Shown: positions 45,144-61,656, numbered from the stretch's first letter. The stretch is 64,000 nucleotides of DNA from an uncultured Bacilli bacterium (GCA_950097225.1 CATNCE010000001.1:121110-185109); one strand, 5' to 3'. Numbers and translations: made by a program. The notes: generated from the letters alone by a model not told the origin.

Positions 45144-45191
45144 GAGAATTTTGTATTCTCTTTTTTTCGACAATTATTTACAACATATACA

Positions 45192-45221
45192 TTGTAAGTG
45201 AAAGTGATTTTATGATACAAT
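45192..45221 (+). promoter_or_regulatory. Promoter of adhesin copy 1 (homologous to that of copy 3), Spo0A box at 45166-45172
   Basis: TTGTAA-18nt-TACAAT with TG; TTCGACA upstream. Confidence 0.55.
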
Positions 45222-45236
45222 ACTCATGAGAATAGG

Positions 45237-47020: not shown

Positions 47021-48280
47021 TCCGCTAAAGATATCTTATATAATTCAACTGATGAAGCCTGGGAGATCGATACAGTAGATGATGCATTAAATGATTTATA
47101 TAATGCATGTGTATTAGGAGAACTGCCCGGATATGGAGGGGCTATAGCAAGCGCACCATTAATAAATGGGGATTTAGTGCCAATAATAATAGCGAGTGAT
47201 GGAGTAGTAACAAAAGCAAATCCAAGTGAAAAATGGTATGATTATAATAATAAAGAATGGGCTAATGCAGTAATATTAGTAGATAATCCAAGTAAACAAT
47301 ATCGTATAGGAGATACAATTCAGGAAAGTGATATTGAATCATATTTTGTATGGATACCAAGATATAGATATAAGTTATTCCATGCTAATCAGGCAGATGG
47401 ATATGAAAATAAATTATCTGAGAGTATAGCACAGGAAATCGAGATTGAGTTTGAGAGTAAAGATACGCCAGTGTCAACAGGAAGTAAGAATGGAGAATGG
47501 TTAACGCATCCAGCTTTCACAAACTTTGATGTCAATGGCATCTGGGTAGGAAAATTTGAACTTGGTTATAAAGGAGCAACAAGTGCGTTTTCAGCTTGGG
47601 CAAACTCAAGTGATTCAACCAAAATCCAAATAAAGCCTAATGTATATCCGTGGAATGGTAATTCTATAGGCAATTATTTCAAGGCTATGTATAATTATAA
47701 ACGTGATTTAGACTCGCATATGATGAAAAATACCGAGTGGGGAGCAGTGGCTTATTTATCCCAGTCGAAATATGGGATAAATACAAAAATAGAAACTAAT
47801 AGTAATTCGGGATTTTTAACAGGGTATGCAACTGCAAATCATCCCTATAATACAGAAACTGGCTATTTGGCTTCAACTACTGACAATATAAGCGGGATTT
47901 ACGATATGTCTGGGGGAATTGATGAGTATGTAGCTGGATATATAGATGGAAATGTTGGAAATAGTGGTTTAACACTGGATGAAATAAGGAATACCTATAA
48001 TAAATATATAGATGTATATGCAAGTAGTAGTGCGGCAACGACATATAGCAATCGTATGCTAGGAGATGCAACCGGAGAGATGGGGCCATTCTATTATAAT
48101 GGATCTAATTATCGAAACAACTGGTATGATGATTATTCGTACTTTGTGGACTCTTCCTCCCCTTGGTTCCGTCGCGGCGGAGCTAGTTCAAGAGCACCTG
48201 GTTTATTTAATTTTCGGGGGAGGAGTACTATGGGAGGCGGTAGCGTAAGTGATTCTTCTCGTCTCGTTTTATTAGGATAG
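47021..48280 (+). pseudogene. C-type-lectin-fold adhesin copy 2, 5'-truncated (no signal peptide or ATG start)
   Basis: Frame open from 47021 (SAKDILYNSTDEAWEIDTVDDALNDLY...) after TAG 47018; the only in-frame start nearby is GTG 47177, inside the homologous domain. Confidence 0.65.
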
Positions 48281-48488: not shown

Positions 48489-51400
48489 ATGGAGAAGAGA
48501 AGATTTGGAAAAATATGGCTTTGTGCAGCTATTTTAGTGAGTGTTTGTTTAGTTGCTAAATTAATTCCTAGTATGGCAAGGGTTAAAAATCGTGTTGCAA
48601 CAGAAATCTCTACAGTTTGGGATGGGAGTGTTGCTAATAGTTACCGAAGTGGGAAAGGGACTAAAAGTGATCCATATATTATAGCTACTGGTTCTGAACT
48701 TGCGTATTTTGGTAAAATGCTTGAAATAACTAATTATAGTGGGACTTATTTTGCTTTAAGTAATGATATTTTGCTAAATGAAGGAATATTTTCTTATGAT
48801 GATGGGCTTAAATATACTTTAAATAAGAGCTCTTTCTATCTTGATTCTAAGACTGGTAATTTTTATGATACTTCTGATTTATCAGGTGTAAAAATAGGAA
48901 CTGTTAATAGTTTTAAAACTTTGAAAAACTTCAAGGGACATTTTGATGGCAAGAGTTATACAATTTATGGAGCTTTTATAAATGGGGAAAATGATGAAAT
49001 TGGTTTATTTAGTAATCTTGAGGGAAATATTACTGATTTATATGTAACTAATGCATCTATTAATGAAGGTAATGTTACTGGTTTGGTAACAAGTGCTAAA
49101 AATGCGACTTTAACAAATGTGGTTTTTAATGGTGTTGTCATTGGAAAAAATGAGGATAGAGTACTTGATAAGAGTATTATGTTAGATGATTATATTGTTG
49201 ATGGGAGTGCCAATATTCTTGTTGATGATGCGGAATTAAGAGGTTTCTATGGGGTGCGAAATTTAACTTTATCAGGTAAATGTGATGCTGATTTTCTTAT
49301 TGATGGGGAAAATATTTCTTGTGTATCTGGTCAATTTGAAACAGGGTTAAATCCTTTGAAGTCTAATTTTGAAGTTGCTTCTAGTGTAATTAATAATCTT
49401 TTAGAATTGAAAGTTAATGTTAGTTCTGTAGGAAATATTGCCGCAGGGATTGTTGGTTATGGTGAAAATATAACGTTAAAAAATGTTGTTAATAAGGCAT
49501 TTGTAAAAGGCAATAGTGAAGGTGCTGGCTTAGTTGGTGTTGCTGTTAATAAGTTAGTGATATCTAATAGTTATAATAATGGGAATGTCGATACTTTAGG
49601 GAATCATGGAGCATTAGTTGGCCGTGTATATTCGTTAAGTGCGCTTTCTAGTATAAATAATAGTTATAATGATGGGGACGACATTGGACTTGTTGGGATG
49701 GTTGTTGGTTCTCAAGATTATCTTAGTATAACGAATTCTTTTGATATTGTTAGTAATGGTAATCTTATTCGTGATATTCAAGAGTCAGTAGTTAATTTAA
49801 ATGGTGTTTATGGTTTACAAACCAATAAGTATTTGGATGGAGTAACAACAGGGAATGTTGTTAAAATCTCTAAGGCTCAGTTGATGAGCAGAGACTATCT
49901 TATCAATAACTTGCATTTTTCTGAATTTGTCGATTTAGAAGACACAGCTACTAATTCTAATAATGTGTGGATTTATGAAGATGGATATTTGCCAATTTTA
50001 TATGTTGATGATATTAAGAATCCTTTTGTAACTCTTAATTTAGGGAATTATTCGTGGAATAACTTAGGATTTGATGATAAAAAGATTAATTTCTCATCTT
50101 CAGTTGCATTTGCAATAAATGATGCTAATGACACAAGACCAATAAAAGAAAGTTATTATTATATAAGTAAAAGTGCACAACCTTTAACAAAGACTCAAAT
50201 TGATGCAATTGATACGTGGACTAAGTATGATAATATTGTATCTATCAGTGAAGATGGTTTTTATGTTTTATATGTAAAAGCATATGACTATGACGGCAAC
50301 GAAGTAATTATAAATTCGGATGTCTTGGTTGTTGATACTTTTGGATCTGATGTTTTAATAACTTTGGGAGAGCGTAAGTGGAGCTTATTTAGTGAAGATT
50401 TGGACTCGGCTTTTATAGATGATAATGCTAAAGTGGAAGTAAGTGCTACTGATGATTTATCAGGGGTTAAATATGTCCAGTATTATGTGACTGATGCTAA
50501 GTTAAACAATGATGAGTTAGATAATTTAAATTGGAGTAATTATGAAGAAGCAATTAGCATTGATAAGCTTGGAACTTATGTGATTTATGTTCGCGTAACT
50601 GATAATGCTTTAAATGAAACTATAATTAATACAGATTATATTATATATGGAGGGTATACCTTGAATAAGGTAGTAGTAGCTTCAGAGGAAATTGCTGATG
50701 CTAGTTTCCAAATTAGTTCTGGGTCTAAACTTGAATATAATTTTAGTTATCAAGATCATCACTATTTCGATGATGGGGATCATCATAATGTTGTATTTAA
50801 TAGAAATGTACCTAATGGGACTAAGCTTATTTTGATGGATAATATAAGTAAGAAAGTTTATTCATATATCGTTAGTAGTGATAGTTTAGTTATTCCTTTT
50901 ACTAGCTTTAGTGTATTAGGTAAAGGCAATATGTATAAGAACTTCCAAGAGAAAACAGGAGACATTGATAAAGAAGATTATACAGTTGTAGTTGATTTTT
51001 CTGATACTATAAAGCCTAGTATAAGTGATTTAACAGTATCTATTGATGTTCGTGATAAGAATGCTTATGTGTCGCGTTCAACGATAAAGAATACATTAAA
51101 AACGCTTAGCGTTATAGAAAATGCTGATGCTAATGTTACATTAAGAAGCACTTATGTGGGAGATGGAATAAAGTATAATGTTGATTCTTTAGAGTTGATT
51201 GACTTATCTTTAGGTCTTCAAAATGTTACCAATGAATTTGGAATCATTAGAGATTCGAGTATTCTGTCAAAGCAGATGGGCATTGCTATTAAACTCGTTA
51301 ATAAAGATGGAGTGACTATCGATAAAAGTAATATGCGCAATATCGAGTTTAAAATTGATGGAGAGTATTATTCTCCTGATTCAGATGGGGTTACGCGAAT

Positions 51401-51980
51401 TAAGATTGGTGATGCATCTGCGTCCGTTTCAAAAACTTTGATGGTCTTAACTTCGGCTAGTAATGCGACACTTTCTGCTGGTGAATATTATTTGTCAGTA
51501 ACGCCAATACTTGCTTATGATGGTATGTATGGTGGAATAAGTACTAGTGAAAATATAGTTATTCCAGTGATTTTTGATAATGCTTTAGATAATAATGAAA
51601 CGTATTCATTTAAAATTGAAAGTGAATCTGATTATAGAGTTTTATATAAAAAAGATGGTGTTGTCTCTTTAAATTATGAAGTTATAAGTGATAACTCTAT
51701 TAAGAATTCGAACGTACGCGTGATGCTATATAAAAAAGATAAATTGACAGCTTATGATCAAAAATATTCTTTAATAGATTTAAATGATTATTTAGTTAAT
51801 CCACTTAATGCTGTAACAGCAAATGTCTATTATGCTTTGACCGATTTTAGCTCAGGTAATAAATTTAGTTTAAATATTGATTTAGCGCGTTTAGAAGCAA
51901 ATGGTTATGAGATTGTCTTTGCTCTTTATGATGATAGTAAAAAAGTGGGAATGATTAAAGAGAAGTTCATTGTTAGATAG
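48489..51980 (+). CDS. Large secreted protein: GLUG-type beta-helix plus tandem Ig-like repeats
   Basis: Signal peptide; WDG..GKGTKSDPYII, FKGHFDG..YTI, IGLF, GLVG repeats; two Y.LYVKA.D..GN..IINSD-type repeats. Confidence 0.75.
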   Translation: MEKRRFGKIWLCAAILVSVCLVAKLIPSMARVKNRVATEISTVWDGSVANSYRSGKGTKSDPYIIATGSELAYFGKMLEITNYSGTYFALSNDILLNEGIFSYDDGLKYTLNKSSFYLDSKTGNFYDTSDLSGVKIGTVNSFKTLKNFKGHFDGKSYTIYGAFINGENDEIGLFSNLEGNITDLYVTNASINEGNVTGLVTSAKNATLTNVVFNGVVIGKNEDRVLDKSIMLDDYIVDGSANILVDDAELRGFYGVRNLTLSGKCDADFLIDGENISCVSGQFETGLNPLKSNFEVASSVINNLLELKVNVSSVGNIAAGIVGYGENITLKNVVNKAFVKGNSEGAGLVGVAVNKLVISNSYNNGNVDTLGNHGALVGRVYSLSALSSINNSYNDGDDIGLVGMVVGSQDYLSITNSFDIVSNGNLIRDIQESVVNLNGVYGLQTNKYLDGVTTGNVVKISKAQLMSRDYLINNLHFSEFVDLEDTATNSNNVWIYEDGYLPILYVDDIKNPFVTLNLGNYSWNNLGFDDKKINFSSSVAFAINDANDTRPIKESYYYISKSAQPLTKTQIDAIDTWTKYDNIVSISEDGFYVLYVKAYDYDGNEVIINSDVLVVDTFGSDVLITLGERKWSLFSEDLDSAFIDDNAKVEVSATDDLSGVKYVQYYVTDAKLNNDELDNLNWSNYEEAISIDKLGTYVIYVRVTDNALNETIINTDYIIYGGYTLNKVVVASEEIADASFQISSGSKLEYNFSYQDHHYFDDGDHHNVVFNRNVPNGTKLILMDNISKKVYSYIVSSDSLVIPFTSFSVLGKGNMYKNFQEKTGDIDKEDYTVVVDFSDTIKPSISDLTVSIDVRDKNAYVSRSTIKNTLKTLSVIENADANVTLRSTYVGDGIKYNVDSLELIDLSLGLQNVTNEFGIIRDSSILSKQMGIAIKLVNKDGVTIDKSNMRNIEFKIDGEYYSPDSDGVTRIKIGDASASVSKTLMVLTSASNATLSAGEYYLSVTPILAYDGMYGGISTSENIVIPVIFDNALDNNETYSFKIESESDYRVLYKKDGVVSLNYEVISDNSIKNSNVRVMLYKKDKLTAYDQKYSLIDLNDYLVNPLNAVTANVYYALTDFSSGNKFSLNIDLARLEANGYEIVFALYDDSKKVGMIKEKFIVR

Positions 51981-51993
51981 GAGTAGTGGTATT

Positions 51994-52533
51994 ATGAAAA
52001 GTAAAATATTAGTAGGTTTGTTTATTGCTGCTGCTATTCTATTTAGCACGGGACTTACATATTCGATTTTTACATCATCGGCAACAATGAGTACTAATAA
52101 TCAAAAGATTGCCAAATTTATTTTTAATGCAGAACAGACGGATGAATTTTTAGTTCCTATAAATGACTTAGTTCCTAATACGTTTAAAGAGTTTGAATTT
52201 CAAGTAAGTAATAATTCTAATGGCCAAAATACCAATGTTAATTTAAATTATCAGATTACTATTAAGACGTTTCATTTTATGCCGTTAGTTATTGAACTTT
52301 ATAAGGTAGGAGTGGAAGATGCTATAATGGTTTGTGATGAATCGTATACACGTAATACTGATAATGAATTAGTGTGTAATTCTTCTTATCAAGAGATGCG
52401 TTATGATAAAGAAGTAATAGATGATTATAAGTTAAAGGTGACATTTCCTTCCGAATATAATGGGGATGAATATGCGTCTTTAGTAGATTATATTGATCTT
52501 AGTATTGCTAGCTTCCAGAAAGTAGATAAGTAG
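51994..52533 (+). CDS. Secreted TasA/camelysin-like filament subunit (SipW-type signal peptide)
   Basis: Hydrophobic leader ending GLTYS|IF; DLVPN..FEFQVSN. Confidence 0.6.
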   Translation: MKSKILVGLFIAAAILFSTGLTYSIFTSSATMSTNNQKIAKFIFNAEQTDEFLVPINDLVPNTFKEFEFQVSNNSNGQNTNVNLNYQITIKTFHFMPLVIELYKVGVEDAIMVCDESYTRNTDNELVCNSSYQEMRYDKEVIDDYKLKVTFPSEYNGDEYASLVDYIDLSIASFQKVDK

Positions 52534-52536
52534 GCG

Positions 52537-53433
52537 ATGATTATGAAAAAAAGTTTAAAGATATCGATAATAATTATTGTTGGGATAGTAGCATTAATTG
52601 CGACTCAATATGGTTTATCCTATGCTAAATATGCATATAATTCTGTTTGGAATTATTATTTAAAGTCAAAGAAATTTTATTTTGATAGTGATTCACTTGG
52701 CGTTGATATTAAAACCCATGTTGATAAGTTGTGGAATGGGGATAAAGTATATTTTAATATTAGGAATAGCTTAAATGATTTAGAGATAAGTGAAAGCGAT
52801 ATTGAGTATAAAGTTACTTGTGAAGTTAAGAATAGTTCTAATAATGCTGTTTGTGATCTTATGGATACAGGTACTAATACTTATACAGGCGTTTTATCAG
52901 CTTATAAGAAATGTGTGAACAAGACAGGAGATAATGTCGATGTTTCTTCATTTGATAGGAGTACATGTGAGATAAGTGGTTATGAGTGGGATATAAGTGT
53001 TGCTAATCGGGAGTTGTATTTTACCCTTTTGAGTGATAGTGGAGAAGTTGAGACTGCTGATGTGGTAATTACAGTTGTCAGTACAAGTCCTTATAAAAAA
53101 ACTTTAAAGGGAGAATATATTTTGAATCGCGATAAAAATATGCTTGGACGTATTATGCATGATTATAATGATTTTGGGCTAGAGGGACAGTTAGTGTTAA
53201 CTAATACTTTTTCTGAGGCTAAGTGTTTGATGATTAATTTTGATTCTACGAAGTTAGTTGTTGATCACAACGATAAGAAGATTAAAAAGTATGCCACTGA
53301 TAGTGATGGATATATTAACGAAATTGTTGTTATGGTAGATGGTGTATCTAGTGAGATTATTCCTTTTTATGATCGAGTATTAAATGATTATAGTAAAGAT
53401 CATTTTACGATTGTGGAAAGTAATGAGTGTTAG
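52537..53433 (+). CDS. Secreted protein with SipW-type signal peptide
   Basis: Leader ending GLSYA|KY; FYFDSD. Confidence 0.6.
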   Translation: MIMKKSLKISIIIIVGIVALIATQYGLSYAKYAYNSVWNYYLKSKKFYFDSDSLGVDIKTHVDKLWNGDKVYFNIRNSLNDLEISESDIEYKVTCEVKNSSNNAVCDLMDTGTNTYTGVLSAYKKCVNKTGDNVDVSSFDRSTCEISGYEWDISVANRELYFTLLSDSGEVETADVVITVVSTSPYKKTLKGEYILNRDKNMLGRIMHDYNDFGLEGQLVLTNTFSEAKCLMINFDSTKLVVDHNDKKIKKYATDSDGYINEIVVMVDGVSSEIIPFYDRVLNDYSKDHFTIVESNEC

Positions 53434-53494: not shown

Positions 53495-54016
53495 ATGTGG
53501 GAGAAAGTTAAGAGTATATTAGTTACAATATTCTGTTTTATATATTTTTCGTTTGCATTAAGTATGACAGTGCTATTATTAAATTTCAATGACTATGGAG
53601 TTACTCAATTTGGGGAGACTTCAATTGTTGTTTTAAAAGAAAAGGTTAATTTTGAGGGATTTAAAAAAGGACAGGTTGTAATAGTTGAATCAGAGTCTGT
53701 TAGCAATTATCAGGTTGGCGATATCGTGTTTACTTATCGCGTTATCAATAAAATACCGCATATTGAAGTTGGCAAAGTTGGGGAAGTATATTTAAATGAG
53801 CGAGCTATTGCTTATGAAAATGGTGATACTTATTCAGAAGAATATATTATTGGAAAACCGACAAAGACTTATAATAAAATGGGAACATTTTTAGCAGTAA
53901 TTCAGTCTAAATGGGGATTTTTGTTTATTATTTTAGTTCCATGTTTCTTATTATTTATTTATCAAATATTTGCTTTGGTAGTAGAAATAAAATATGGTTC
54001 AGAAAGTACAGTTTAA
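53495..54016 (+). CDS. Degenerate SipW-like (S26B) membrane protein
   Basis: TM / beta domain (..VGDIVFTY..IIGK) / TM architecture of SipW, but no GSM or THR motif. Confidence 0.6.
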   Translation: MWEKVKSILVTIFCFIYFSFALSMTVLLLNFNDYGVTQFGETSIVVLKEKVNFEGFKKGQVVIVESESVSNYQVGDIVFTYRVINKIPHIEVGKVGEVYLNERAIAYENGDTYSEEYIIGKPTKTYNKMGTFLAVIQSKWGFLFIILVPCFLLFIYQIFALVVEIKYGSESTV

Positions 54017-54121
54017 GAGCTACTATGCTCTTTTTTATTTGGCATCAATGCATAAATTGGGATTGTTGGAAGGAAGTTTTTTATTGTTCTGATTTTTTGT
54101 TAGAAAGTTTGGCTAAAAATA

Positions 54122-54193: not shown

Positions 54194-56260
54194 ATGCTGT
54201 CTAAAAGTAGTTTGTTGAAAAGGATTGTTAATGTCATATTAAATATTTTCATTACTATATTTATAATCGTATTGTTGATTACTCTTTATAATAATTTGCA
54301 GGTAACTGTTTTGAAGAATACTTATGCTAGTTTTTTTGGATACTCTATATTTGAGGTGCAAACAGGCAGTATGGAACCTAGTATATCTCCTGGAGATTGT
54401 GTAATAACGCATTATGTTAACGAAGTCGAGTTAGATGATGTTATAACTTTTCAAAGGAATGGAGAGTTTATAACGCATAGAGTAATAGAAGCATATAAGG
54501 GGACTTACGTTACCAAGGGGGATGCTAATAATGCTAAAGATGAGCCAATTAGTCGTGAACAAATAGTCGGAAAAGTTGTGAAGATAATTCCTAATGTTGG
54601 AGCGATGCGCAGTACTATATTGAATCCGGTTGTCTTAATTGGCTTAATTATTACTTTCTATCTTTTAACATTTGCTTTTAAAGATAGAAAAAAAGTGGTT
54701 GAGGTTGATGTAAATATACGTGAAGAAAAAGAAGTGAAATCTATGAAGTTAAAGGAAATGTTAAAGTCTTTGTTAAAAAAGAATGAAAAAGTAGTAACAC
54801 CAAAGAAAGTAGTCATTATTCCTCCAAAAGAAGAGATAAAAGAGGAAGTTATTAGTGCTGTAGATAATGAAATCGAGGATGATGTTCGTTTAGAAGAAGA
54901 TATAATAAAGTCTGATTCAACTGATGAGTACTTGGATGATGAGCTTGATAAAACGATCGTGTTTCGAATGGTAGCAGTTGATGGTGATGAACTAGATAAA
55001 TCGTATAAGAAGATTTTGAAGTTAAATGAGGAAGAAGAACTAAAAGAGAAAAAAGAACAAATAAAAAGAGAAAAACGCGAAGAGAAAAATAAAAGTAGTG
55101 TTAAAGAGAAAGTTAAAAAGCCAGGTATTACCGATGAGTTAGATCGCATACAAAAGAAGAAAAAGAAATTTAAAAACATAATTGAAAAGGCAATGTTTAT
55201 CAAGGAAGATGAAGTTAGTTTGATGGTGGATATTTTGTTAAGGGATGAGGCTAGTAAACCAGGAATTCCTTCGATAAAAAATACTTTTGTCAAGACATAT
55301 ATAGATGGTAAATACTACAACTATTGTGGCAATGTTAATTTAGAGTACACTAAAAAGAATATGGTTTCTAAGGTTAATGCTGCTATGCAAGATAAAGCAA
55401 GTGAGCTTATTAAAGTTTATAAGGGAAATGATAAAAAGTATAACGATAAAGTTATGAAAATGGTTGATGTTTTTGCTTTAATTATTACTCTTGAAACTGC
55501 CTTTTTAGTACAAGAAGGTATTAGGGTAAAAAGAGATAATTACAAGACTAAAATTCTTAAGGTTTTAAAAGAACTTACTGATGGACCAATAGTAAAAGAT
55601 ATGGTAAATCAAATTATTGAAGTTCAAAAGAGTCATGCTGAGATGGTTAAAACGTCTCTTGAGAAAATTGAAACAAATATGTTTAAATTGACGACTAATA
55701 GTGTTGCTAAAAATTTGAGTGCTGTTTATTTAGAACATAATATTGCATTTAGCAAGGTTTATAGTGATTATATTGTAGATAAGACTTATAGTGAGGGCGT
55801 TGTAGCGGAGGATAAAATAGCAGTTTTATTGACGCTTTTATCAGGACAAATACTAAATGATATGTATGCTTGTGAATTTAATCAAAAGTATATGTTCTAT
55901 ATTCCAGAGAGTTTATATACTAAGTCTAATAAGCTTAGTGCCATTTTTGATAAATTTGAGGATGAGTATGCGAAGACGATGATAGTTGTTCTTATTCAAT
56001 ATAGTGAGTTAAGCCGCAATAGTAAAGTTGTTCGTGAACTTATCAAGGAAGGATATCACTTCGCTGTTGACTTAAGTAAGACTGATCGCATTAAGAGCAA
56101 AGATATGGGGCTTATGGAACTTATGAGTATATTATTTATGGATCGTAAGACTAAAGATAAAAAGGAAATTATAGCTAGTTTATCAGACTATGCACAAAAA
56201 CGCGTTATATATGATGATATTGAAGCTAAGGTTGGAAGTTTTTGGGGGGATAACGAATGA
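54194..56260 (+). CDS. Signal peptidase I (SipW type) fused to a large cytoplasmic region ending in a degenerate EAL-like domain
   Basis: VQTGSMEP, ITHRV, TKGDANN, second TM; C-terminal IVVLIQYSE..VRELIKEGYHFAVD. Confidence 0.75.
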   Translation: MLSKSSLLKRIVNVILNIFITIFIIVLLITLYNNLQVTVLKNTYASFFGYSIFEVQTGSMEPSISPGDCVITHYVNEVELDDVITFQRNGEFITHRVIEAYKGTYVTKGDANNAKDEPISREQIVGKVVKIIPNVGAMRSTILNPVVLIGLIITFYLLTFAFKDRKKVVEVDVNIREEKEVKSMKLKEMLKSLLKKNEKVVTPKKVVIIPPKEEIKEEVISAVDNEIEDDVRLEEDIIKSDSTDEYLDDELDKTIVFRMVAVDGDELDKSYKKILKLNEEEELKEKKEQIKREKREEKNKSSVKEKVKKPGITDELDRIQKKKKKFKNIIEKAMFIKEDEVSLMVDILLRDEASKPGIPSIKNTFVKTYIDGKYYNYCGNVNLEYTKKNMVSKVNAAMQDKASELIKVYKGNDKKYNDKVMKMVDVFALIITLETAFLVQEGIRVKRDNYKTKILKVLKELTDGPIVKDMVNQIIEVQKSHAEMVKTSLEKIETNMFKLTTNSVAKNLSAVYLEHNIAFSKVYSDYIVDKTYSEGVVAEDKIAVLLTLLSGQILNDMYACEFNQKYMFYIPESLYTKSNKLSAIFDKFEDEYAKTMIVVLIQYSELSRNSKVVRELIKEGYHFAVDLSKTDRIKSKDMGLMELMSILFMDRKTKDKKEIIASLSDYAQKRVIYDDIEAKVGSFWGDNE

Positions 56261-57783
56261 ATACATTTATAAGATTCTTTTATGAATTTATATCAGTTTT
56301 TTTAAACGGACTTGGGATGATTTTTAAAGGGCTTGTTGGCGGAATAAAGAAAATGTTTAGCATAAGTGATTATGCTAAGGTAATCGATAGCTATAATGGT
56401 AGTTTTAATGGTTTAGAGAAGTTCTTTGTCTTTCTATCTGTCGCTTTTTTAGTCTTAATTGTTCTTTTAATAATTTTCTTAATTGTTTTATTTGTTCGCA
56501 AATTAATAAGAAGAAGTATGAATAACATGAGCAAAGAGGAATTATTAGAGGAAATTGCTAATTTGAATGATAAAGTTCGCAAACTCATGAAGGAAAAAGA
56601 AGAAATTATGGCGATGAAGGTTTCTCAGTTAGGATTAAATCCTGATGCAGATGAAGAAGAAAATCCTGAAGGGGTAGTAGAAGAGGAAGATCCAGCTCAA
56701 GCGGGAATAAGATTTCCTAAGTTGGTGCAGTTAGATGAGGACTTTAAGAATTTTCATCCGCGCAATTACGAAAATGCTTTTACTCTTGAAGAGTTGATTG
56801 ATGATTTTCGCTGTTATTCAGCATCGCAATTGAAACTATATTATGATTTTAATATATTACGACCTTTCTTTGCTGGATTGGCTTGTAGCAAATTGATAAT
56901 TTTACAAGGTATATCAGGAACAGGTAAAACCTCACTTGCTTATGCATGGGGAAAGTTTGTTGGAAATGATTCTTATGTTGCATCTGTTGAACCATCATGG
57001 CGTGATAAATCAGACTTTTTAGGATATTTTAATGAATTTACCAAGAAGTTTAATGAGACTTCAGCTCTTGGCGAGATTTATGCTGCTAGTTTTGATGATG
57101 ATGTGCATACTATTATTCTTGATGAGATGAATTTAGCGCGTGTAGAATACTATTTTGCTGATTTATTATCAATATTAGAGATGCCATCGAGAGATGAATG
57201 GGTTGTTGATTTAGTGCCAAATGCTTGGCCAAAAGATCCTAAAAAATTAGAACGTGGTAAGTTAAGGTTGCCAGGGAATTTATGGTATATTGGTACAATT
57301 AACAATGATGACTCGACATTTATGGTTACTGATAAAGTGTATGACCGTGCTATGCCAATCGATATTAATACGAAGATTAGTGCGTTTGAATGTCGTGAAC
57401 AAGAATGTGTTAATGTTAATTCGACTTATTTAGAAAATTTATTTATTGATGCGATTGAAAAGCATCCATTATCTGATAAGGGCGAAAAACAAGTTAATGA
57501 TATTGATGATTATGTAATTAAGCATTTTAGAATATCTTTTGGTAATCGTATCATGAAACAATTAGGAGTATTTGCTCCTGTATATGTTGCTTGTGGTGGA
57601 AAAGAGATAGAGGCAATTGATTATTTCGTTGCTAAGAAAATTTTACGTAAATTTGATCAATTAAGTGTTGCTTTAATTCGCGATGAAATTGATCCATTTA
57701 TAACATTCTTGAATAAGAATTTTGGTAAAAACACTATGAAGGAATGTATTGAGTATTTAGAAAGATTGAAGAAGAGTATTTAA
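56257..57783 (+). CDS. Membrane-anchored McrB-family AAA+ GTPase (NxD type)
   Basis: TM plus coiled coil; GISGTGKT, V.PSW.D..DFLGY.N, LDEMNLARVEYYFAD.LS.LE, GTINNDDST, KVYDRA. Confidence 0.85.
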   Translation: MNTFIRFFYEFISVFLNGLGMIFKGLVGGIKKMFSISDYAKVIDSYNGSFNGLEKFFVFLSVAFLVLIVLLIIFLIVLFVRKLIRRSMNNMSKEELLEEIANLNDKVRKLMKEKEEIMAMKVSQLGLNPDADEEENPEGVVEEEDPAQAGIRFPKLVQLDEDFKNFHPRNYENAFTLEELIDDFRCYSASQLKLYYDFNILRPFFAGLACSKLIILQGISGTGKTSLAYAWGKFVGNDSYVASVEPSWRDKSDFLGYFNEFTKKFNETSALGEIYAASFDDDVHTIILDEMNLARVEYYFADLLSILEMPSRDEWVVDLVPNAWPKDPKKLERGKLRLPGNLWYIGTINNDDSTFMVTDKVYDRAMPIDINTKISAFECREQECVNVNSTYLENLFIDAIEKHPLSDKGEKQVNDIDDYVIKHFRISFGNRIMKQLGVFAPVYVACGGKEIEAIDYFVAKKILRKFDQLSVALIRDEIDPFITFLNKNFGKNTMKECIEYLERLKKSI

Positions 57784-57796
57784 TTGGGGTGATAAT

Positions 57797-58924
57797 GTGG
57801 CAAGCAAAGATATTATAGAGGTTAGTAATGATGTCCTTGAAACATCTACTAAATTTTTACACGATGTAGAGTCAAATGTTTATTTTGACTCGCGTCTTGC
57901 TAGCGATTTATTTGATACAGAATGGCTTGAAAGATTAGAATATGCTTGCCCCTATATCGATATTATCGTTAGAAATCCTAAACTAGCTTTAATAAAAGAG
58001 GAAAATGTTGTCTTAGTTGAAAAAGCCAAGAAAATTGATGTTACAAGTGTAAAGGATTTAGCTAAGCATACTGAGCGGATAAGCCGTTATGATCGTGGTA
58101 CTGATAGTGTTGAACCTAAGAAGATATTAGATATTCGCAATGAGGAGACGTTTAATATTTATGAGAATAGATTCTTGTATACTGTTGTTAAGATGACTAT
58201 CGCGTTTGTTTCTAATAAGGAGAGGATGCTTAAAAAACTTGATCTTAAAGATTATAAGCTTTTAGAGTATTCGTCAAAGACAACTACGTTATCGGAAAAA
58301 GTTAATATTCAAGTTAAGGTTAATTCTGAATCTATTCCTAAAGGAAAGATGGATAAAGACGTTCTTGATAAAGTTAAGGAAATAAAGAAGCGTATAAAGA
58401 GAATAAAGGATTTTCTTTTAAGTTGGGAAAGAAGCCCAATGATGAAGGAAATTGAGGCCGCACATATATCTTTAATGAAACCGCCTATTCGTAAGACTAA
58501 CGTTATTTTGAAAAACCCAAATTTCCAGGTTGCTGTTAAACTTTGGGAGTATTTATATAAGTTTAGTGAAAATAAAGAGGAATCTGGAGATAATACTTCG
58601 GCACGAGCAGGTAATGTCTTGTTAGGATTTTTAGATCATTCTTTTTTAGTAGATTACTTTGTAATGAACTCAATGGCAGTATCTAAAAGAGAACAGAAGA
58701 AAAAAATGGCTACATATGCTGTCTTATTATTAAGCGAAGAGATTAGGAGAATTATGGCTCTTTTAAAGAATATGGGCTTAGATATTACGGATGAGGAATT
58801 GATGCGTTTAGTGGCAAAAGAACTTCACGGCAATAATGAACGTCTTGTTGGAGTGTCTGATGTAAAAAAGAAATTTAAGAGTGCTATGAGTGAATATTTG
58901 GAAAGGACACAAGATGTCTTGTAA
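57797..58924 (+). CDS. DUF2357 (McrC N-terminal-like) protein without evident nuclease domain
   Basis: EETFNIYENRF and PPIRKTNVILKNPNF...LW; directly after the McrB-like gene. Confidence 0.7.
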   Translation: MASKDIIEVSNDVLETSTKFLHDVESNVYFDSRLASDLFDTEWLERLEYACPYIDIIVRNPKLALIKEENVVLVEKAKKIDVTSVKDLAKHTERISRYDRGTDSVEPKKILDIRNEETFNIYENRFLYTVVKMTIAFVSNKERMLKKLDLKDYKLLEYSSKTTTLSEKVNIQVKVNSESIPKGKMDKDVLDKVKEIKKRIKRIKDFLLSWERSPMMKEIEAAHISLMKPPIRKTNVILKNPNFQVAVKLWEYLYKFSENKEESGDNTSARAGNVLLGFLDHSFLVDYFVMNSMAVSKREQKKKMATYAVLLLSEEIRRIMALLKNMGLDITDEELMRLVAKELHGNNERLVGVSDVKKKFKSAMSEYLERTQDVL

Positions 58925-58932
58925 AATAATAT

Positions 58933-59499
58933 ATGAAGAAACTTAGAGAGAATAAAATTTTTAAAGTTATTAAAACTTTAGTTAATGTGAGTATTGCTGT
59001 TGTTTTGATTTCCTTCTTTGTAGTTGTGTGTTTGCAGCGTTTTAGTGGAAATAAATTAGCTATATTTAATTTCCGAATGTTTACTGTTGCATCAGGTAGT
59101 ATGCAACCTAAATATGTAGTTGGAGATGTTTTGTTGTCAAAACAAATTGATACTAAAAAGATTAAAGTGGGCGATACGATTAGCTATTTGGGAACTTCTG
59201 GGGATTTTCGTGATAAGGTCATAACGCATGAAGTTATTGCAATAGATAACTTAGATAACGGAAAAAGAGTGTTTCATACTAAAGGTATTGCCAATATAAT
59301 TGAGGATCCAGTTGTCAATGAAGAACAGGTATATGGAGTAGTAATTGGTAAAGCTAAGTTGCTGTCATGGATATATAAAATGATGTCGACAAAATATGGT
59401 ATATTTATAATTGTTATACCACTTCTATATATATTTGGGTCAGAGTTTCTATCTTTTTTATTAGAAAAAGAAGAGAAAAAGAGAAATATAGTTAAATGA
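58933..59499 (+). CDS. sipW: Signal peptidase I, SipW type
   Basis: VASGSMQP, VGD, ITHEV, TKGIAN..D; two TMs. Confidence 0.85.
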   Translation: MKKLRENKIFKVIKTLVNVSIAVVLISFFVVVCLQRFSGNKLAIFNFRMFTVASGSMQPKYVVGDVLLSKQIDTKKIKVGDTISYLGTSGDFRDKVITHEVIAIDNLDNGKRVFHTKGIANIIEDPVVNEEQVYGVVIGKAKLLSWIYKMMSTKYGIFIIVIPLLYIFGSEFLSFLLEKEEKKRNIVK

Positions 59500-59518: not shown

Positions 59519-60739
59519 ATGAATCGAAAGAAGAGAATATTGCTGAAGATGAATATTGTTTCGCTGTTCTTTATAGCTTTATCATTCGTTTCTATTACAC
59601 TAGCTTGGTTTGCCTATAGTGGTCTTGCAAAAGTTGAAACTGACGTTAATGTTAAAGCTTGGTATATTGAATTTCAAAAGGATAATAGTGCTACATCTAA
59701 TGATATAATTATTTCTTTAGATGATATTTATCCAGGAATGGAGCCGTCAAGTGAGAAGATTGATATAAAGAATTTTGGAGATTCTGATGCTATGGTTACG
59801 TACCAAATTACTTCGGCTCGAATATTGGATGAAGAGATCTCCGTTAGTGATGAGGACATGGTTAGTTTAATAGATAGATTATCGCATGATTATCCTTTTC
59901 ATATAAATGTTGGACTTTCTTCTTCTTTAGCAGTTAGAGAAGTTGGAAGTAGTGAACTTAATGTTTCGGTTTCTTGGCCAATGGATTCAGATAACGATGA
60001 GGCAGATAGCCAGTGGGGTGTTGCAGCTTTCAAGTTTAAAAAACAAGAAGAGGAAAAGAAGGCAGCAGATCCTTCATATCAAATTAGAAGTCCATTACGT
60101 ATAACAATTAATATGCGAGCAGAGCAATTTACTGATGATGTTAATTCTTTAGATCCTAAATATAATTTAGGAAACACTTTATTGTTTGATCCAGTTAACA
60201 ATGTTCGTTGTTCTAAGATAAGTACCACTTGTCTTAAGATGTATGTTATTGACACTGCTAATAAGGTAGGAGACAAGACAGTTACTTTAATGCCAGATTT
60301 GTATAAGGCCTATGGGCCAAGTAGATATGATAATCGTTTAACTACTTTAAATAATGCTGTAGCAAATTGGCAAGTTCCTACTGATGAATTAAGTGTTGAG
60401 CATTTGCTGCGAATAATCTCCTCAGATGTTGTTAAATCAACTCTTTCTAGAGAGAAGCTTTCTGATTCAATAATTGGTAGCATGCATTTAGATGAGCGAG
60501 TTTATGAAGAAATAGATAAGGCTAAAGATGGAAAAGGATATTTTACTTTTGATAATACTCGAAATAAAATGCTAGTTAGAAATGGTTGTTATTGGTTAAA
60601 GAATGAATATAGCTCTACTTCAGGATTTGCTGTTCAGAAGTACAATCAGATAAAAACGGAAATTTTAGGTCTTGATAAAATGAGCAGTTGTAATGTCGTT
60701 CCTATTATAAGTGTTGATAAAAAGGTGCTAGAACAATAA
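59519..60739 (+). CDS. SipW-dependent TasA/camelysin-like protein with additional C-terminal domain
   Basis: Leader ending SITLA|WF; IYPG..IKNFGD; C-terminal YWL..VVPII. Confidence 0.65.
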   Translation: MNRKKRILLKMNIVSLFFIALSFVSITLAWFAYSGLAKVETDVNVKAWYIEFQKDNSATSNDIIISLDDIYPGMEPSSEKIDIKNFGDSDAMVTYQITSARILDEEISVSDEDMVSLIDRLSHDYPFHINVGLSSSLAVREVGSSELNVSVSWPMDSDNDEADSQWGVAAFKFKKQEEEKKAADPSYQIRSPLRITINMRAEQFTDDVNSLDPKYNLGNTLLFDPVNNVRCSKISTTCLKMYVIDTANKVGDKTVTLMPDLYKAYGPSRYDNRLTTLNNAVANWQVPTDELSVEHLLRIISSDVVKSTLSREKLSDSIIGSMHLDERVYEEIDKAKDGKGYFTFDNTRNKMLVRNGCYWLKNEYSSTSGFAVQKYNQIKTEILGLDKMSSCNVVPIISVDKKVLEQ

Positions 60740-60740: not shown

Positions 60741-60769
60741 AAAACTCTTGTGTATTCCAAGAGTTTTTT
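60741..60769 (+). terminator. Terminator closing the SipW/McrB operon
   Basis: AAAACTCTTG/CAAGAGTTTTTT. Confidence 0.8.
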
Positions 60770-60809: not shown

Positions 60810-61424
60810 TTAATTAGTTTTTTGTGTAAATTCTAGAGAAGCCTTTATTTGCAATGTAGTATCTTCGCTAGCAGCTTTTATTCCGATTTCTGTATCTTTT
60901 TCATCATTCATTGTTTCGTTTTCGTTTTCAAACCATTCAAAGTAGATTCTAATAGTAAATGGTTCATAAGCATTTTCATTTATATTTAATGATCCTGTTA
61001 TTTGATTATCAGTAATATTTAATGTTTGAATGTTGTCTCCTTCTTGATGAGTAGTATTTAATAGTGCATATTTTGTTATCATTAAATCAGGTATTGCTTC
61101 GTTTAGTATTTCTAGTGATATTTTATAATTAAAAGATAGTTCTGTGTTTGATGGATCAATATCGATATCAAAATAGCCTTTTGATGATGGAGCAATCGTG
61201 TTTTTAGCAACATTAGTATTTTCTTCGATCACAGGTGTCAGTTCGATTGACGTCGTGTTTTCATTGGTTATATCATTTGAGTTTACTAGTATTTGCCATT
61301 TGGTAAATTTTACTTCAATGTTTCCACTAGTTCCTGCTACATAACGTGAATAGGTGTTACTCATTAGTCCTAACGTAAGTGAAAGGGACATGAGTGCTAG
61401 CAATATTTTAAATTTCTTTTTCAT
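60810..61424 (-). CDS. TasA-like filament subunit (SipW-type signal peptide)
   Basis: Leader ending SNTYS|RY, N-terminal strand ..KWQILVN, IAPSSKGYFDIDID, C-terminal LEFTQ. Confidence 0.65.
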   Translation of the reverse strand: MKKKFKILLALMSLSLTLGLMSNTYSRYVAGTSGNIEVKFTKWQILVNSNDITNENTTSIELTPVIEENTNVAKNTIAPSSKGYFDIDIDPSNTELSFNYKISLEILNEAIPDLMITKYALLNTTHQEGDNIQTLNITDNQITGSLNINENAYEPFTIRIYFEWFENENETMNDEKDTEIGIKAASEDTTLQIKASLEFTQKTN

Positions 61425-61656
61425 TATTATTTTACCTCTCTTAATTCTAAAATAATTATATCGTTTGGCATATTTTGTGTCAATCTATGTCGTAAAAAAG
61501 ATGTAATTGTCGTGTAAATAATTGTAAACAAGGAATAATATGGAGGAGTAGTTTATTGTTGATGCTTTTGGTAATATCTTTTTTTGACAAAATACTACAC
61601 TATAATCGTTGTAAACAAAATGGATTTTGTGATAAAATGTTACCAGAATAGGATGC

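What the first reader, a model, noticed from the sequence alone, without database searches (positions are those of the whole stretch)
56257..58924. Membrane-tethered McrB GTPase with a nuclease-less McrC-like partner
Seen: McrB has Walker A/B, the NxD signature (GTINND) and DRA finger. Its N-terminus is an amphipathic helix, a TM and a coiled coil instead of a DNA-reading domain. The partner has DUF2357 motifs (YENRF; P..TNVILKNPNF..LW) followed by ~120 helical residues with no PD-(D/E)xK pattern. Known: McrC's N-domain stimulates GTP hydrolysis inside the McrB hexamer, and cleavage needs the nuclease domain. Inference: motor and activator are kept while both DNA-facing parts are lost, i.e. 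exaptation of a type IV restriction machine. An alternative is a defence sensor guarding the filament as a phage receptor.
Basis: partly seen in the sequence, partly recalled or inferred. Interest (0 to 1): 0.85.

Follow-up and report, generated by a model that had tools for sequence, protein, structure and literature searches.

The report
Membrane-anchored McrBC motor in fibre operon
Two genes descended from a DNA-cutting restriction enzyme have lost both DNA-handling parts, gained a membrane anchor and sit inside an operon for secreted protein fibres in a mouse-gut bacterium; this kind of system was named in 2024 but nobody has yet shown what it does.

Summary
ORF 56257-57783 encodes a 508-aa McrB-family AAA+ NTPase. 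It has invariant Walker A/B, an N-x-D-D signature and an Arg motif behind one transmembrane helix, a coiled coil and an acidic linker. ORF 57797-58924 encodes a 375-aa McrC-like protein: DUF2357 (E 1.1e-10), then an all-helical, unconserved tail with no nuclease fold.

The interpretation (an exapted restriction motor) is reasonable but not new. Bell et al. [quoted passage not shown] I found no follow-up.

New here:
- The pair lies in a fixed four-gene core, X-McrB-McrC-SipW (X upstream in 75 of 75 loci, McrC in 76 of 76, SipW in 75 of 75).
- X is an unannotated ~330-aa domain. In this genome it is fused to a SipW-type signal peptidase.
- McrB is the best-conserved gene of the cluster and was more conserved than UvrC in 5 of 5 genomes.
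- The system is patchy: 66 of 201 genomes of the order.
- No nuclease or defence effector was recognised in the cluster.

Best reading (0.55): a cytoplasmic, membrane-tethered NTPase ring with an McrC-like plug that serves SipW-dependent fibre biogenesis. A defence role is not excluded. Verdict: new member of a known but uncharacterised kind.

The parts
54194..56260 (+). 688-aa fusion protein. It holds a SipW-type signal peptidase (res 1-165, nt 54194-54688; TM segments near res 6-41 and 139-164), a K/E-rich linker (res 166-328, nt 54689-55177) and the cytoplasmic 'domain X' (res 329-688, nt 55178-56257). Its stop codon overlaps the P0001 start (ATGA).
   Evidence: NCBIfam TIGR02228 scores 2.2e-20, 73.1 bits against a cut-off of 51.85. 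Hydropathy and the junction sequence come and coordinates. A domain X homologue lies directly upstream of the McrB-like gene in 75 of 75 loci that have an upstream ORF. The alignment is A3. No Pfam or PDB match was found.
56257..57783 (+). P0001, a 508-aa membrane-tethered McrB-family AAA+ NTPase of the NxD branch.
56257..56406 (+). P0001 res 1-50: a conserved, partly amphipathic and hydrophobic N-terminal segment. M1, G29, Y39 and Y46 are invariant.
   Evidence: Alignment A1. AlphaFold2 predicts helices 3-20, 26-33 and 36-44. There is a marginal hydrophobic window at 12-30.
56422..56496 (+). P0001 res 56-80: a single strong transmembrane helix, followed by RKLIRR (+4).
   Evidence: The Kyte-Doolittle peak is 3.79. 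By the positive-inside rule (established knowledge) the C-terminal part is placed in the cytoplasm; this is an inference.
56530..56706 (+). P0001 res 92-126, a coiled-coil-like helix, and res 128-150, an acidic disordered linker.
   Evidence: AlphaFold2 draws a continuous helix 52-122 with pLDDT below 50 over 87-147. L97, E99, L103, V107, L110 and M120-G126 are conserved.
56809..57780 (+). P0001 res 185-508: the AAA+ core and lid. Walker A is at nt 56908-56934, Walker B at 57112-57132, the N-x-D-D signature at 57292-57318 and VYDRAM at 57337-57354.
57797..58582 (+). P0002 res 1-262: the McrC N-terminal (DUF2357, finger-like) domain. It has a long beta-hairpin at res 152-179 and the invariant residues Y122, E123, N124, N235 and K239.
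   Evidence: Pfam DUF2357 scores 1.1e-10. The alignment is A2. The AlphaFold2 model has pLDDT 84.3. VIA-align matches TgMcrC 6ut5_G at Z 7.8 over 140 residues and EcMcrC 6hz4_M at Z 7.0 over 143 residues.
58583..58921 (+). P0002 res 263-375: an unconserved all-helical tail that stands in place of the PD-(D/E)xK nuclease.
   Evidence: Only helices are predicted after residue 187, namely 273-291, 297-325, 332-345 and 353-374 within the tail. No column is conserved after W250. No nuclease Pfam family reaches its cut-off.
58933..59499 (+). A 188-aa SipW-type signal peptidase I that keeps the SGSM and THE motifs.
   Evidence: TIGR02228 scores 2.5e-19. The alignment is A4. It lies directly downstream of the McrC-like gene in 75 of 75 loci with room.
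59519..60739 (+). A 406-aa secreted protein with an N-terminal signal anchor (..SITLAWFAY..). It is the last gene of the putative operon.
   Evidence: Syntenic in 75 of 80 loci. The N-terminus is listed. A terminator-like hairpin lies at 60741-60767.
60810..61424 (-). A 204-aa secreted protein that is a candidate TasA/camelysin-like fibre subunit.
   Evidence: In the ESM Atlas the nearest named cluster carries Peptidase_M73 on 59% of its members (score 0.94, 196 shared features). This is a lead only. The gene is syntenic in 64 of 80 loci.
53495..54016 (+). A 173-aa SipW-like protein that lacks the Ser and His aligned in its two paralogues, so it is probably a pseudo-peptidase. A terminator-like hairpin follows at 54015-54032.
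   Evidence: The TIGR02228 match is weak (0.0013, below the cut-off). The alignment is A4. The terminator scan is.
48489..53433 (+). Upstream part of the cluster: a 1163-aa secreted giant (48489-51980) and secreted proteins of 187 aa (51970-52533) and 298 aa (52537-53433).
   Evidence: Synteny comes (42, 36 and 51 of 80 loci). The OmpL47-type domain scores 4.5e-11. N-termini are listed.

Best explanation
[quoted passage not shown] 2024).

What the proteins are:
- P0001 is a McrB-family AAA+ NTPase of the NxD branch. Its DNA-reading N-domain has been replaced by one transmembrane helix, a coiled coil and a flexible acidic linker.
- P0002 is a McrC homologue reduced to the finger/DUF2357 domain plus a helical tail. 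It has no nuclease.

Shown by the calls: family membership, loss of both DNA-facing domains, invariant catalytic motifs, and a fixed gene order X-McrB-McrC-SipW inside a cluster of SipW-type signal peptidases and signal-anchored secreted proteins.

Inferred:
- The NTPase forms a hexameric ring on the cytoplasmic face of the membrane, hung from six TM/coiled-coil tethers.
- The McrC-like finger plugs the ring and stimulates hydrolysis through a basic residue. The candidate is the invariant K239.
- The NTP-driven movement of plug against ring is passed to the membrane machinery instead of positioning a nuclease on DNA. The likely route is domain X, which in this genome is covalently fused to a SipW peptidase.
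- That machinery processes and polymerises TasA/camelysin-like fibre subunits.

The pair would therefore be the energy-using or gating component of fibre (pilus) biogenesis, not a restriction enzyme.
For: Family membership:
- Profile of 36 orthologues against the PDB: only E. coli McrB, E 6.5e-6.
- hhalign against E. coli McrB: probability 96.9%, E 1.6e-10 over 186 columns.
- Fold: AAA+ helix-2-insert clade. McrB 6ut6_D gives the lowest rmsd among the 50 rows listed (Z 11.9, 2.8 A, 178 residues, 20% identity).
- More distant relatives of the core carry AAA_5, MrcB_N or EVE domains and are named McrB by their sources.
- Every relative's row that covers the signature reads N-x-D. It is followed by E in nearly all, by D in P0001, P0273 and P0274, and by A in P0298.
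- P0002 hits DUF2357 at 1.1e-10. The two solved McrC chains rank 4 and 17 among the entries listed from 48,161 chains and are the longest well-superposed alignments (rmsd about 4 A, 140 and 143 residues).

Loss of DNA-facing parts.

Active motor: Walker A/B, N349, D351, D352 and R364 are invariant in 36 sequences.

Context:
- The McrC-like gene is directly downstream in 76 of 76 loci with room, and SipW in 75 of 75.
- Domain X is directly upstream in 75 of 75 loci with an upstream ORF. That includes 39 of 39 loci not used to build the profile. In 21 of the 75 the X gene overlaps the McrB start.
- X is fused to SipW in 38 loci and is 290-400 aa without a SipW part in 36, of which 2 begin at a contig end.
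- Three SipW paralogues lie in the cluster.
- There is a TasA/camelysin lead for the 204-aa protein.

Constraint: P0001 is the best-conserved gene of the cluster (median 62% identity, against 32-49% for the others). It is more conserved than UvrC in 5 of 5 genomes: 74/52, 71/64, 65/52, 58/54 and 55/46%.

No effector: no nuclease, HEPN or PADLOC family was found in the other cluster proteins scanned.

Published concept: section 7 of PMC11090510. The McrC plug and Arg/Lys stimulation mechanism: passages of PMC7680126.
Against: - No experiment or expression data bear on function.
- The system is accessory, not core. It was found in 66 of 201 genomes of the order (44 of 98 genera), all at least 90% complete, and not in the one other genome of the same genus. 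This pattern is equally typical of defence islands.
- Identity ranks disagree with UvrC (G155: McrB 74%, UvrC 52%; G066: 71%, 64%), which hints at lateral transfer.
- P0001 matches the PADLOC defence-candidate model PDC-M26A at 1.3e-38, but only over the AAA+ core.
- SipW-type peptidases occur in 171 of 201 genomes, many without the McrB-like gene, so fibres of this general kind do not need the motor.
- The fibre nature of the secreted proteins rests on N-terminal signal patterns and one Atlas lead. Pfam and NCBIfam found nothing.
- Pfam AAA_5 does not hit P0001, and hhalign of the McrC-like profile against E. coli McrC fails.
- The role of K239 and the cytoplasmic topology are inferred.
- Nucleotide preference (GTP or ATP) is unknown for the whole NxD branch.
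Confidence: 0.55

Rival explanations
1. It is a defence or abortive-infection system derived from McrBC. The membrane-tethered ring senses phage attack, for example at the fibre used as a receptor or at DNA entry through the membrane. It then acts through a membrane or secreted effector rather than a nuclease.
For: - The family's roots are in type IV restriction, and its sister CoCoNuT systems are predicted defence systems.
- P0001 hits the PADLOC model PDC-M26A at 1.3e-38.
- Distribution is patchy, 66 of 201 genomes, and some genomes hold two diverged copies.
- Identity ranks are incongruent with UvrC.
Against: - No nuclease, HEPN or other recognised effector lies in the cluster. P0002 and nine other cluster proteins have no PADLOC match (Pfam).
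- By Bell et al., nuclease-less CoCoNuT McrC homologues are always paired with another nuclease. None was found here.
- P0001 evolves more slowly than UvrC in 5 of 5 comparisons. That is unusual for defence genes (general knowledge).
- The invariant partners are signal peptidases and secreted proteins.
Confidence: 0.2
2. It belongs to the fibre cluster but is not an assembly motor. It would be a regulator or a quality-control AAA+ machine. Examples are gating SipW cleavage, extracting uncleaved or misassembled signal-anchored subunits or spent signal peptides from the membrane, or coupling fibre production to the cell cycle through its FtsB-like TM/coiled-coil part.
For: - It shares the same synteny evidence as the best explanation.
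- SipW/TasA-type fibres elsewhere polymerise outside the cell without a cytoplasmic NTPase. This rests on passages of PMC11580942 and on the 171 of 201 genomes with SipW against 66 of 201 with the motor.
- A catalytically degenerate SipW paralogue lies in the cluster.
- Bell et al. see FtsB-like similarity in the anchor.
Against: - No protease or unfoldase pore loops were examined.
- In McrBC the ring pore is occupied by McrC, so it cannot thread a substrate.
- No FtsB/DivIC family hit for P0001 at E <= 0.1.
- Nothing distinguishes this reading from the best explanation without experiments.
Confidence: 0.2
3. It is a decaying remnant of a restriction system that happens to lie beside a fibre operon.
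For: The DNA-binding and nuclease domains are lost.
Against: - The frames are intact.
- Catalytic motifs are invariant across 36 orthologues.
- At least 8000 full-length relatives were found.
- Gene order is fixed in 75-76 of 75-76 loci.
- It is the best-conserved gene of the cluster.
Confidence: 0.02

Closest known systems
[quoted passage not shown]
   Same: It has an NxD-branch McrB-like GTPase fused to a TM helix plus coiled coil. [quoted passage not shown] The McrC homologue carries a helical extension and no nuclease.
   Different: No defining feature differs, so this is a member. The paper gives one paragraph and defers the description. I could not see its Supplementary file 1 or Figure 3-figure supplement 1. 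The points added here (domain X and its fusion to SipW, the degenerate SipW paralogue, conservation and distribution figures) may or may not be in them.
McrBC type IV restriction enzymes of E. coli and Thermococcus gammatolerans (PDB 6hz4, 6ut6, 6ut5, 7vsr)
   Same: The AAA+ core has the Walker motifs, the signature Asn/Asp and an Arg motif. The partner has a DUF2357 finger domain. The genes are adjacent.
   Different: There is no N-terminal DNA-binding domain; a TM helix and coiled coil stand in its place. There is no PD-(D/E)xK domain. The signature is N-x-D-D, as in the NxD branch. The context is secretion, not restriction-modification.
CoCoNuT systems (coiled-coil nuclease tandems)
   Same: They share the NxD GTPase branch, coiled-coil fusions, and McrC homologues that often lack an active PD-(D/E)xK domain.
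   Different: CoCoNuTs that lack the McrC nuclease are always linked to HEPN or other nucleases. No nuclease was recognised in this cluster. CoCoNuT GTPases are not described as membrane-anchored.
SipW-dependent TasA/BsaA fibres (B. subtilis tapA-sipW-tasA; C. perfringens sipW-bsaA-bsaB-bsaC)
   Same: A SipW-type signal peptidase is clustered with signal-anchored secreted proteins. One of them has a Peptidase_M73 (camelysin/TasA) lead.
   Different: Those operons have no cytoplasmic NTPase. Here there are three SipW paralogues (one degenerate, one fused to domain X) plus the McrBC-like pair.
Type IV pilus assembly ATPase with its membrane platform (PilB/PilC). This is an analogy recalled from general knowledge and was not tested.
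   Same: It works alike only in concept: a cytoplasmic hexameric NTPase at the membrane that drives extracellular filament assembly from membrane-anchored subunits.
   Different: The ATPase family is unrelated, there is no prepilin peptidase, and the subunits here look like SipW substrates. A separate type IV pilin-like gene exists elsewhere in the window (30078-30704).

Membership tests
McrB-family AAA+ GTPase | Walker A and Walker B motifs of an AAA+ P-loop | tested here: met
   GISGTGKTS (218-226) and IILDEMN (286-292). Their core residues are invariant in 36 orthologues.
McrB-family AAA+ GTPase | McrB signature Asn/Asp motif (NxxD, or NxD in the variant branch) | tested here: met
   GTINNDDST: N349-x-D351-D352. 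All relatives that cover the motif read N-x-D, mostly followed by E. The profile alignments to E. coli GLMNTADRS need no gap, so N349 pairs with EcN333 and D352 with EcD336. Whether to call it NxD or NxxD therefore depends on the alignment.
McrB-family AAA+ GTPase | Specific sequence similarity to characterised McrB | tested here: met
   Profile against the PDB: only E. coli McrB, E 6.5e-6. hhalign gives 96.9% probability, E 1.6e-10. Single-sequence phmmer found nothing.
McrB-family AAA+ GTPase | Pfam AAA_5 (PF07728) match | tested here: not met
   There is no AAA_5 hit at E <= 0.1. Some longer relatives of the core do carry PF07728. The model misses this diverged branch, which lowers nothing but the convenience of annotation.
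McrB-family AAA+ GTPase | AAA+ fold of the helix-2-insert clade | tested here: met
   Foldseek gives 53 matches at E <= 0.001, including dynein, MCM, MoxR, McrB 6hz4_A (rank 5), BrxL and RavA. VIA-align gives 2r44 at Z 15.1 and McrB 6ut6_D at Z 11.9 with rmsd 2.8 A. The fold alone does not separate McrB from MoxR.
McrB-family AAA+ GTPase | N-terminal DNA-binding (modified-base reading) domain | tested here: not met
   Residues 1-150 are a conserved N-terminal segment, a TM helix, a coiled coil and an acidic linker. No DNA-binding family was found.
McrB-family AAA+ GTPase | GTP-specific hydrolysis stimulated by McrC | not testable with these tools
   This needs biochemistry. No NxD-branch enzyme has been characterised.
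McrC | N-terminal DUF2357 / finger domain | tested here: met
   Pfam gives 41.6 bits against a cut-off of 23.3, E 1.1e-10. TgMcrC scores Z 7.8 over 140 residues and EcMcrC Z 7.0 over 143 residues, at ranks 4 and 17 among the entries listed from 48,161 chains. Unrelated helical bundles score Z 7-8.7, so the fold match alone is moderate. Foldseek and hhalign against EcMcrC found nothing.
McrC | Conserved Arg/Lys that stimulates McrB (TgMcrC R263, EcMcrC K157) | tested here: inconclusive
   K239 is invariant in 55 sequences. It lies in the part of the model aligned to EcMcrC 34-189. No residue-level structural alignment was available, so the equivalence is inferred.
McrC | C-terminal PD-(D/E)xK endonuclease domain | tested here: not met
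   The model has only helices after residue 187 and no strand after 179. No conserved acidic or Lys column follows W250. No nuclease Pfam family reaches its cut-off. A sub-threshold SwaI-like match (E 0.013, 15.5 bits against 27) lies in residues 95-200, inside the finger domain.
CoCoPALM (Bell et al. 2024) | NxD McrB-like GTPase fused to a TM helix plus coiled coil (FtsB-like) | tested here: met
   The TM helix, coiled coil and NxD motif are shown. Homology of the anchor to FtsB itself was not reproduced: there was no FtsB/DivIC hit at E <= 0.1.
CoCoPALM (Bell et al. 2024) | Association with signal-peptidase-family proteins | tested here: met
   Three SipW-type genes lie in the cluster. SipW is directly downstream in 75 of 75 loci. 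A SipW-X fusion or free X is directly upstream in 75 of 75.
CoCoPALM (Bell et al. 2024) | Coiled-coil or helical extension on the McrC homologue as well | tested here: met
   There is a helical tail at 263-375. I ran no coiled-coil predictor.
Type IV restriction system (function) | A nuclease subunit and recognition of modified DNA | tested here: not met
   Neither domain is present. The activities themselves cannot be tested here.
PADLOC candidate system PDC-M26 | Matches to the system's component models | tested here: inconclusive
   The A component matches over the AAA+ core only (res 192-310 to profile 313-432 of 724; 1.3e-38). P0002 and nine other cluster proteins have no PADLOC match. 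A search for 'PDC-M26' found 0 papers that describe it.

The most novel reading that the evidence does not exclude
The X-McrB-McrC-SipW core is a new kind of filament-assembly machine. A membrane-hung McrB-like ring acts as a stator. Its NTP-driven, stepwise movement against the McrC-like plug is the F/V-ATPase-like rotation model that Niu et al. proposed for McrBC. That movement is transmitted through domain X and its tether to a SipW-type peptidase platform. The platform would then process signal-anchored TasA-like subunits and feed them into a growing fibre. This would be an energy-coupled pilus pathway distinct from type IV, sortase and chaperone-usher systems, built from a domesticated restriction motor.
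Probability: 0.25. Interest if true: 0.85.

Novelty: new member of a known kind. Interest (0 to 1): 0.5.

Why it matters
If the motor really serves fibre biogenesis, it is a clear case of a defence enzyme's engine being reused for cell-surface construction. It would also supply the missing energy source for a class of SipW-dependent fibres in abundant, uncultured, small-genome gut Bacilli.

The class has a name but no description or experiment. The fixed four-gene core and the X-SipW fusion defined here give a concrete minimal set to express and image. If it is instead a defence system, it would be a nuclease-free, membrane-acting McrBC derivative, which is also unusual.

Tried and rejected
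- Single-sequence searches found nothing useful. phmmer of P0001 and P0002 against the PDB gave no real match. Pfam did not find AAA_5 in P0001.
- The McrC-like profile against the PDB gave only a designed protein at E 0.028. hhalign of that profile against E. coli McrC failed, with probability 0.14%. Foldseek of the P0002 model gave 0 matches at E <= 0.001.
- Domain X has no annotation. The profile against the PDB gave nothing below E 0.27. Pfam on 37 members gave only scattered chance hits. The search for shorter relatives gave 34 hits, unnamed or 'hypothetical protein'.
- An EAL-like appearance of X's C-terminal half, which I noticed by eye, has only one weak Atlas lead (rank 15, score 0.90, EAL on 13% of members). 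I do not claim it.
- Complex prediction of P0002 with domain X gave no verdict (scores 0.00, 0.59, 0.00 against a mark of 0.32). This is no evidence either way. I did not test P0001 with P0002, because a hexamer exceeds the size limit and the pair is a textbook one.
- The look-up of sequencing runs listed no RNA holder. The stretch is held by 19 runs of 12 studies, mostly labelled mouse gut metagenome. Read laying was not used, since contigs cannot show expression.
- The promoter scan was not above shuffles (94 found against 78.7 +/- 9.7), so I draw no promoter from it.
- I looked for the polytopic-membrane McrB fusions (P0285 type) in the 201 genomes of the order. Only the AAA+ part matched, in the CoCoPALM genes themselves.
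- Literature searches found no follow-up. 'CoCoPALM' gave only the eLife paper and its preprint among relevant hits. 'McrB'+'TasA' gave 20 papers; none of the 10 listed looked relevant by title and abstract start. I opened only the C. perfringens paper, which mentions McrB only in an E. coli strain genotype. 'McrB-like'/'pilus assembly'/'signal peptidase' gave nothing further. 'PDC-M26' gave 0 papers.
Supplementary file 1 and Figure 3-figure supplement 1 of Bell et al. may already hold details that I present as additions.
- Chance ORFs and a decaying remnant are rejected on the conservation data.

Full report
**What is there.** The finding's coordinates match two adjacent + strand ORFs: 56257-57783 (508 aa, P0001) and 57797-58924 (375 aa, GTG start, P0002). 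The window has about 31% G+C. It lies in a 1.61-Mb, 58-contig genome that is 92% complete and holds one copy of P0001. Related records are labelled uncultured Bacilli, Tenericutes or Mollicutes, Candidatus Coprovivens, or Clostridium sp. CAG:567. The stretch itself occurs in 19 runs of 12 studies, mostly labelled mouse gut metagenome.

**P0001 is a McrB-family NTPase with a membrane anchor.** Pfam does not report AAA_5 at E <= 0.1, and phmmer finds nothing in the PDB. A profile of 36 orthologues (A1, 55-75% identical to P0001) does find something:
- It hits only E. coli McrB in the PDB: three distinct sequences at E 6.5e-6 to 1.5e-5, with the next hit at E 1.5.
- hhalign against E. coli K-12 McrB gives 96.9% probability and E 1.6e-10 over 186 columns.

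The AlphaFold2 model has mean pLDDT 74.5. It matches AAA+ proteins of the helix-2-insert clade, with 53 Foldseek matches at E <= 0.001 and McrB 6hz4_A at rank 5. By VIA-align the MoxR-like 2r44 scores highest (Z 15.1, 279 residues, 4.7 A). McrB 6ut6_D gives the lowest rmsd among the 50 rows listed (Z 11.9, 178 residues, 2.8 A, 20% identity).

Longer relatives of the core number 563 at E <= 0.001 among 2154 candidates. They include proteins that carry AAA_5, MrcB_N or EVE domains and are named McrB by their sources.

The catalytic motifs are Walker A GISGTGKTS, Walker B IILDEMN, GTINNDDST and VYDRAM. Their core residues are invariant in A1.

Every relative's row that covers the signature reads N-x-D. 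E follows in nearly all, D in P0001, P0273 and P0274, and A in P0298. This is the 'NxD' variant that Bell et al. describe. The profile alignments to E. coli GLMNTADRS need no gap, so the label depends on the alignment.

The N-terminal 150 residues hold the following:
- a conserved N-terminal segment;
- one strong hydrophobic helix (res 56-80), followed by RKLIRR;
- a helix that AlphaFold2 continues to residue 122;
- an acidic disordered linker.

By the positive-inside rule the NTPase is cytoplasmic. That is an inference, but it fits the enzyme's need for nucleotide.

**P0002 is an McrC finger domain without a nuclease.**
- Pfam DUF2357 scores 41.6 bits against a cut-off of 23.3 (E 1.1e-10, res 54-148).
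- A library-wide HMMER search found 1304 relatives at E <= 0.001. The ~370-aa ones align end to end. The 450-1150-aa ones align only to residues about 25-260.
- Of 10 such long relatives scanned, 9 carry DUF2357 and none carries a nuclease family at E <= 0.01.
- In 55 relatives (A2) the invariant residues are E75, L88, P107, Y122, E123, N124, N235, K239 and W250. Nothing after W250 is conserved.

The model (pLDDT 84.3) is alpha/beta up to residue 179, with a long hairpin at 152-179. After residue 187 it has only helices. There is therefore no sheet on which a PD-(D/E)xK site could sit.

Foldseek found nothing. An all-against-representatives structural search placed T. gammatolerans McrC (Z 7.8, 140 residues) and E. 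coli McrC (Z 7.0, 143 residues) at ranks 4 and 17 among the entries listed from 48,161 chains. These were the longest well-superposed alignments (rmsd about 4 A) in a background of three-helix bundles at Z 7-8.7. That is moderate support on its own.

In solved McrBC, the McrC finger plugs the McrB ring and inserts Arg263 (Tg) or Lys157 (Ec) to stimulate hydrolysis (passages of PMC7680126). The invariant K239 is my candidate for the equivalent residue here; this is an inference.

**Context.** I took the 80 best related loci from one genome per species; 489 of 600 candidate stretches encode a relative. Gene order is fixed among them:
- The McrC-like gene follows directly in 76 of 76 loci with room, and a SipW-type signal peptidase follows it in 75 of 75.
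- Directly upstream, 75 of 75 loci with an upstream ORF encode a homologue of an unannotated ~330-aa domain that I call X. This includes 39 of 39 loci not used to build its profile.
- The gap between X and the McrB start is -14 to +17 nt in 72 of the 75 loci and is an overlap in 21.
- In 38 loci, including this window (ATGA overlap), X is the C-terminal part of a 560-800-aa protein. Its N-terminus is a SipW-type peptidase, joined to X by a K/E-rich linker.
- In 36 loci the X-bearing ORF is 290-400 aa and has no SipW part. Two of these start at a contig end and may be cut.

Such a fusion argues that X works at the SipW peptidase.

The window's cluster also holds:
- a third SipW-like gene that lacks the Ser and His aligned in its paralogues (that these are the catalytic residues is recalled);
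- four signal-anchored secreted proteins of 187, 298, 406 and 204 aa, and a 1163-aa giant;
- for the 204-aa protein, a Peptidase_M73 (camelysin/TasA) lead in the ESM Atlas.

Terminator-like hairpins at 54015-54032 and 60741-60767 bracket a putative operon of sipW-X, the McrB-like gene, the McrC-like gene, sipW and the 406-aa gene.

**Constraint and distribution.**
- P0001 has at least 8000 relatives in the 90%-clustered collection. The best 120 are 69-100% identical and near full length.
- Across the 80 loci it is the best-conserved gene of the cluster: median 62% identity, against 41% for the McrC-like gene, 49% for SipW and 32-43% for the rest.
- In five genomes it is more conserved than UvrC: 74/52, 71/64, 65/52, 58/54 and 55/46%.
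- Yet it is accessory. It was found in 66 of 201 genomes of the order (44 of 98 genera), all at least 90% complete, and not in the other genome of the same genus.
- Some genomes have a second copy about 50% identical, and the one I examined (L087, G072) has its own McrC-like gene directly downstream.
- SipW-type peptidases are far commoner, at 171 of 201 genomes.

**What it is and how it probably works.** The architecture is the one that Bell, Makarova, Wolf and Koonin named CoCoPALM. [quoted passage not shown] They defer the description to 'a separate, forthcoming publication' (section 7 read). I found no such publication.

My reading, at confidence 0.55, runs as follows:
- A hexameric ring hangs under the membrane and is plugged by the McrC-like finger.
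- Its nucleotide cycle acts on the SipW machinery through X rather than on DNA.

Family membership, domain loss and the linkage are shown. The ring, the stimulation, the topology and the coupling are inferred.

A defence role (0.2) is kept alive by three observations: the patchy distribution, the PADLOC PDC-M26A match over the AAA+ core, and identity ranks that disagree with UvrC. Against it, no effector was found in the other cluster proteins scanned, and the gene evolves slowly.

A regulatory or quality-control role within the fibre pathway (0.2) cannot be separated from an assembly motor without experiments.

**Novelty.** This is a new member of a named but uncharacterised kind. The additions made here are the invariant X-McrB-McrC-SipW core, the X-SipW fusion, the degenerate SipW paralogue and the conservation and distribution figures. 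They may overlap with supplements of the eLife paper that I could not open.

Noticed in passing
window 53495-54016 (+): The 173-aa SipW-like protein has KEKVN where its two paralogues have SGSM/TGSM, and FTYRV where they have ITHEV/ITHRV. It therefore probably lacks the catalytic Ser and His (the identity of those residues is recalled). It has tblastn matches in 61 of 80 related loci, so it looks like a retained pseudo-peptidase.
   Followed up: partly
window 55178-56257 (+); loci L045-L081 directly upstream of the McrB-like gene: Domain X (~330 aa) has no Pfam or PDB match. It carries the motifs YIxxKYYN and HNIxFxKxYSxYxIxKxY. It occurs either fused to SipW or as a shorter protein without a SipW part. 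Its C-terminal half looked EAL-like by eye, but only one weak Atlas lead supports that.
   Followed up: partly
proteins P0280-P0330: The closest longer relatives of the AAA+ core (33-39% identity, about 890-950 aa) carry roughly 10 or more hydrophobic segments in their first ~470 residues. Of the 120 longer relatives, 52 have at least one such segment. McrB-like NxD NTPases fused to a polytopic membrane domain therefore exist. None was found in the 201 genomes of this order.
   Followed up: partly
window 45149-46579 and 61566-62996: Two paralogous genes for ~560-aa signal-anchored proteins flank the cluster as direct repeats, 84% identical over 1441 nt. They have sub-threshold FGE-sulfatase-like matches. 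A third, N-terminally shorter copy lies at 47177-48280.
   Followed up: partly
window 30078-30704 (+): A 208-aa protein carries a prepilin-type N-terminal methylation motif (Pfam N_methyl, 2.7e-06). It lies among housekeeping genes, so a type IV pilin-like gene exists apart from the SipW cluster.
   Followed up: no
genomes G155 and G066: G155 is closer than G066 by the McrB-like protein (74% against 71%) but farther by UvrC (52% against 64%). Together with the patchy distribution, this hints at lateral transfer of the cluster within the family.
   Followed up: no
genomes G196, G103, G021, G095, G081, G088, G072, G126; L087: Several genomes hold a second McrB-like copy about 47-52% identical to the query. 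In the one I looked at (L087), an McrC-like gene again follows it. Paralogous systems therefore coexist in one genome.
   Followed up: partly
window 48489-51980 (+): The 1163-aa secreted protein at the head of the cluster has an OmpL47-type beta-barrel / bacterial Ig-like domain (NCBIfam 4.5e-11). It is syntenic in 42 of 80 loci and may be a tip or adhesin component.
   Followed up: no
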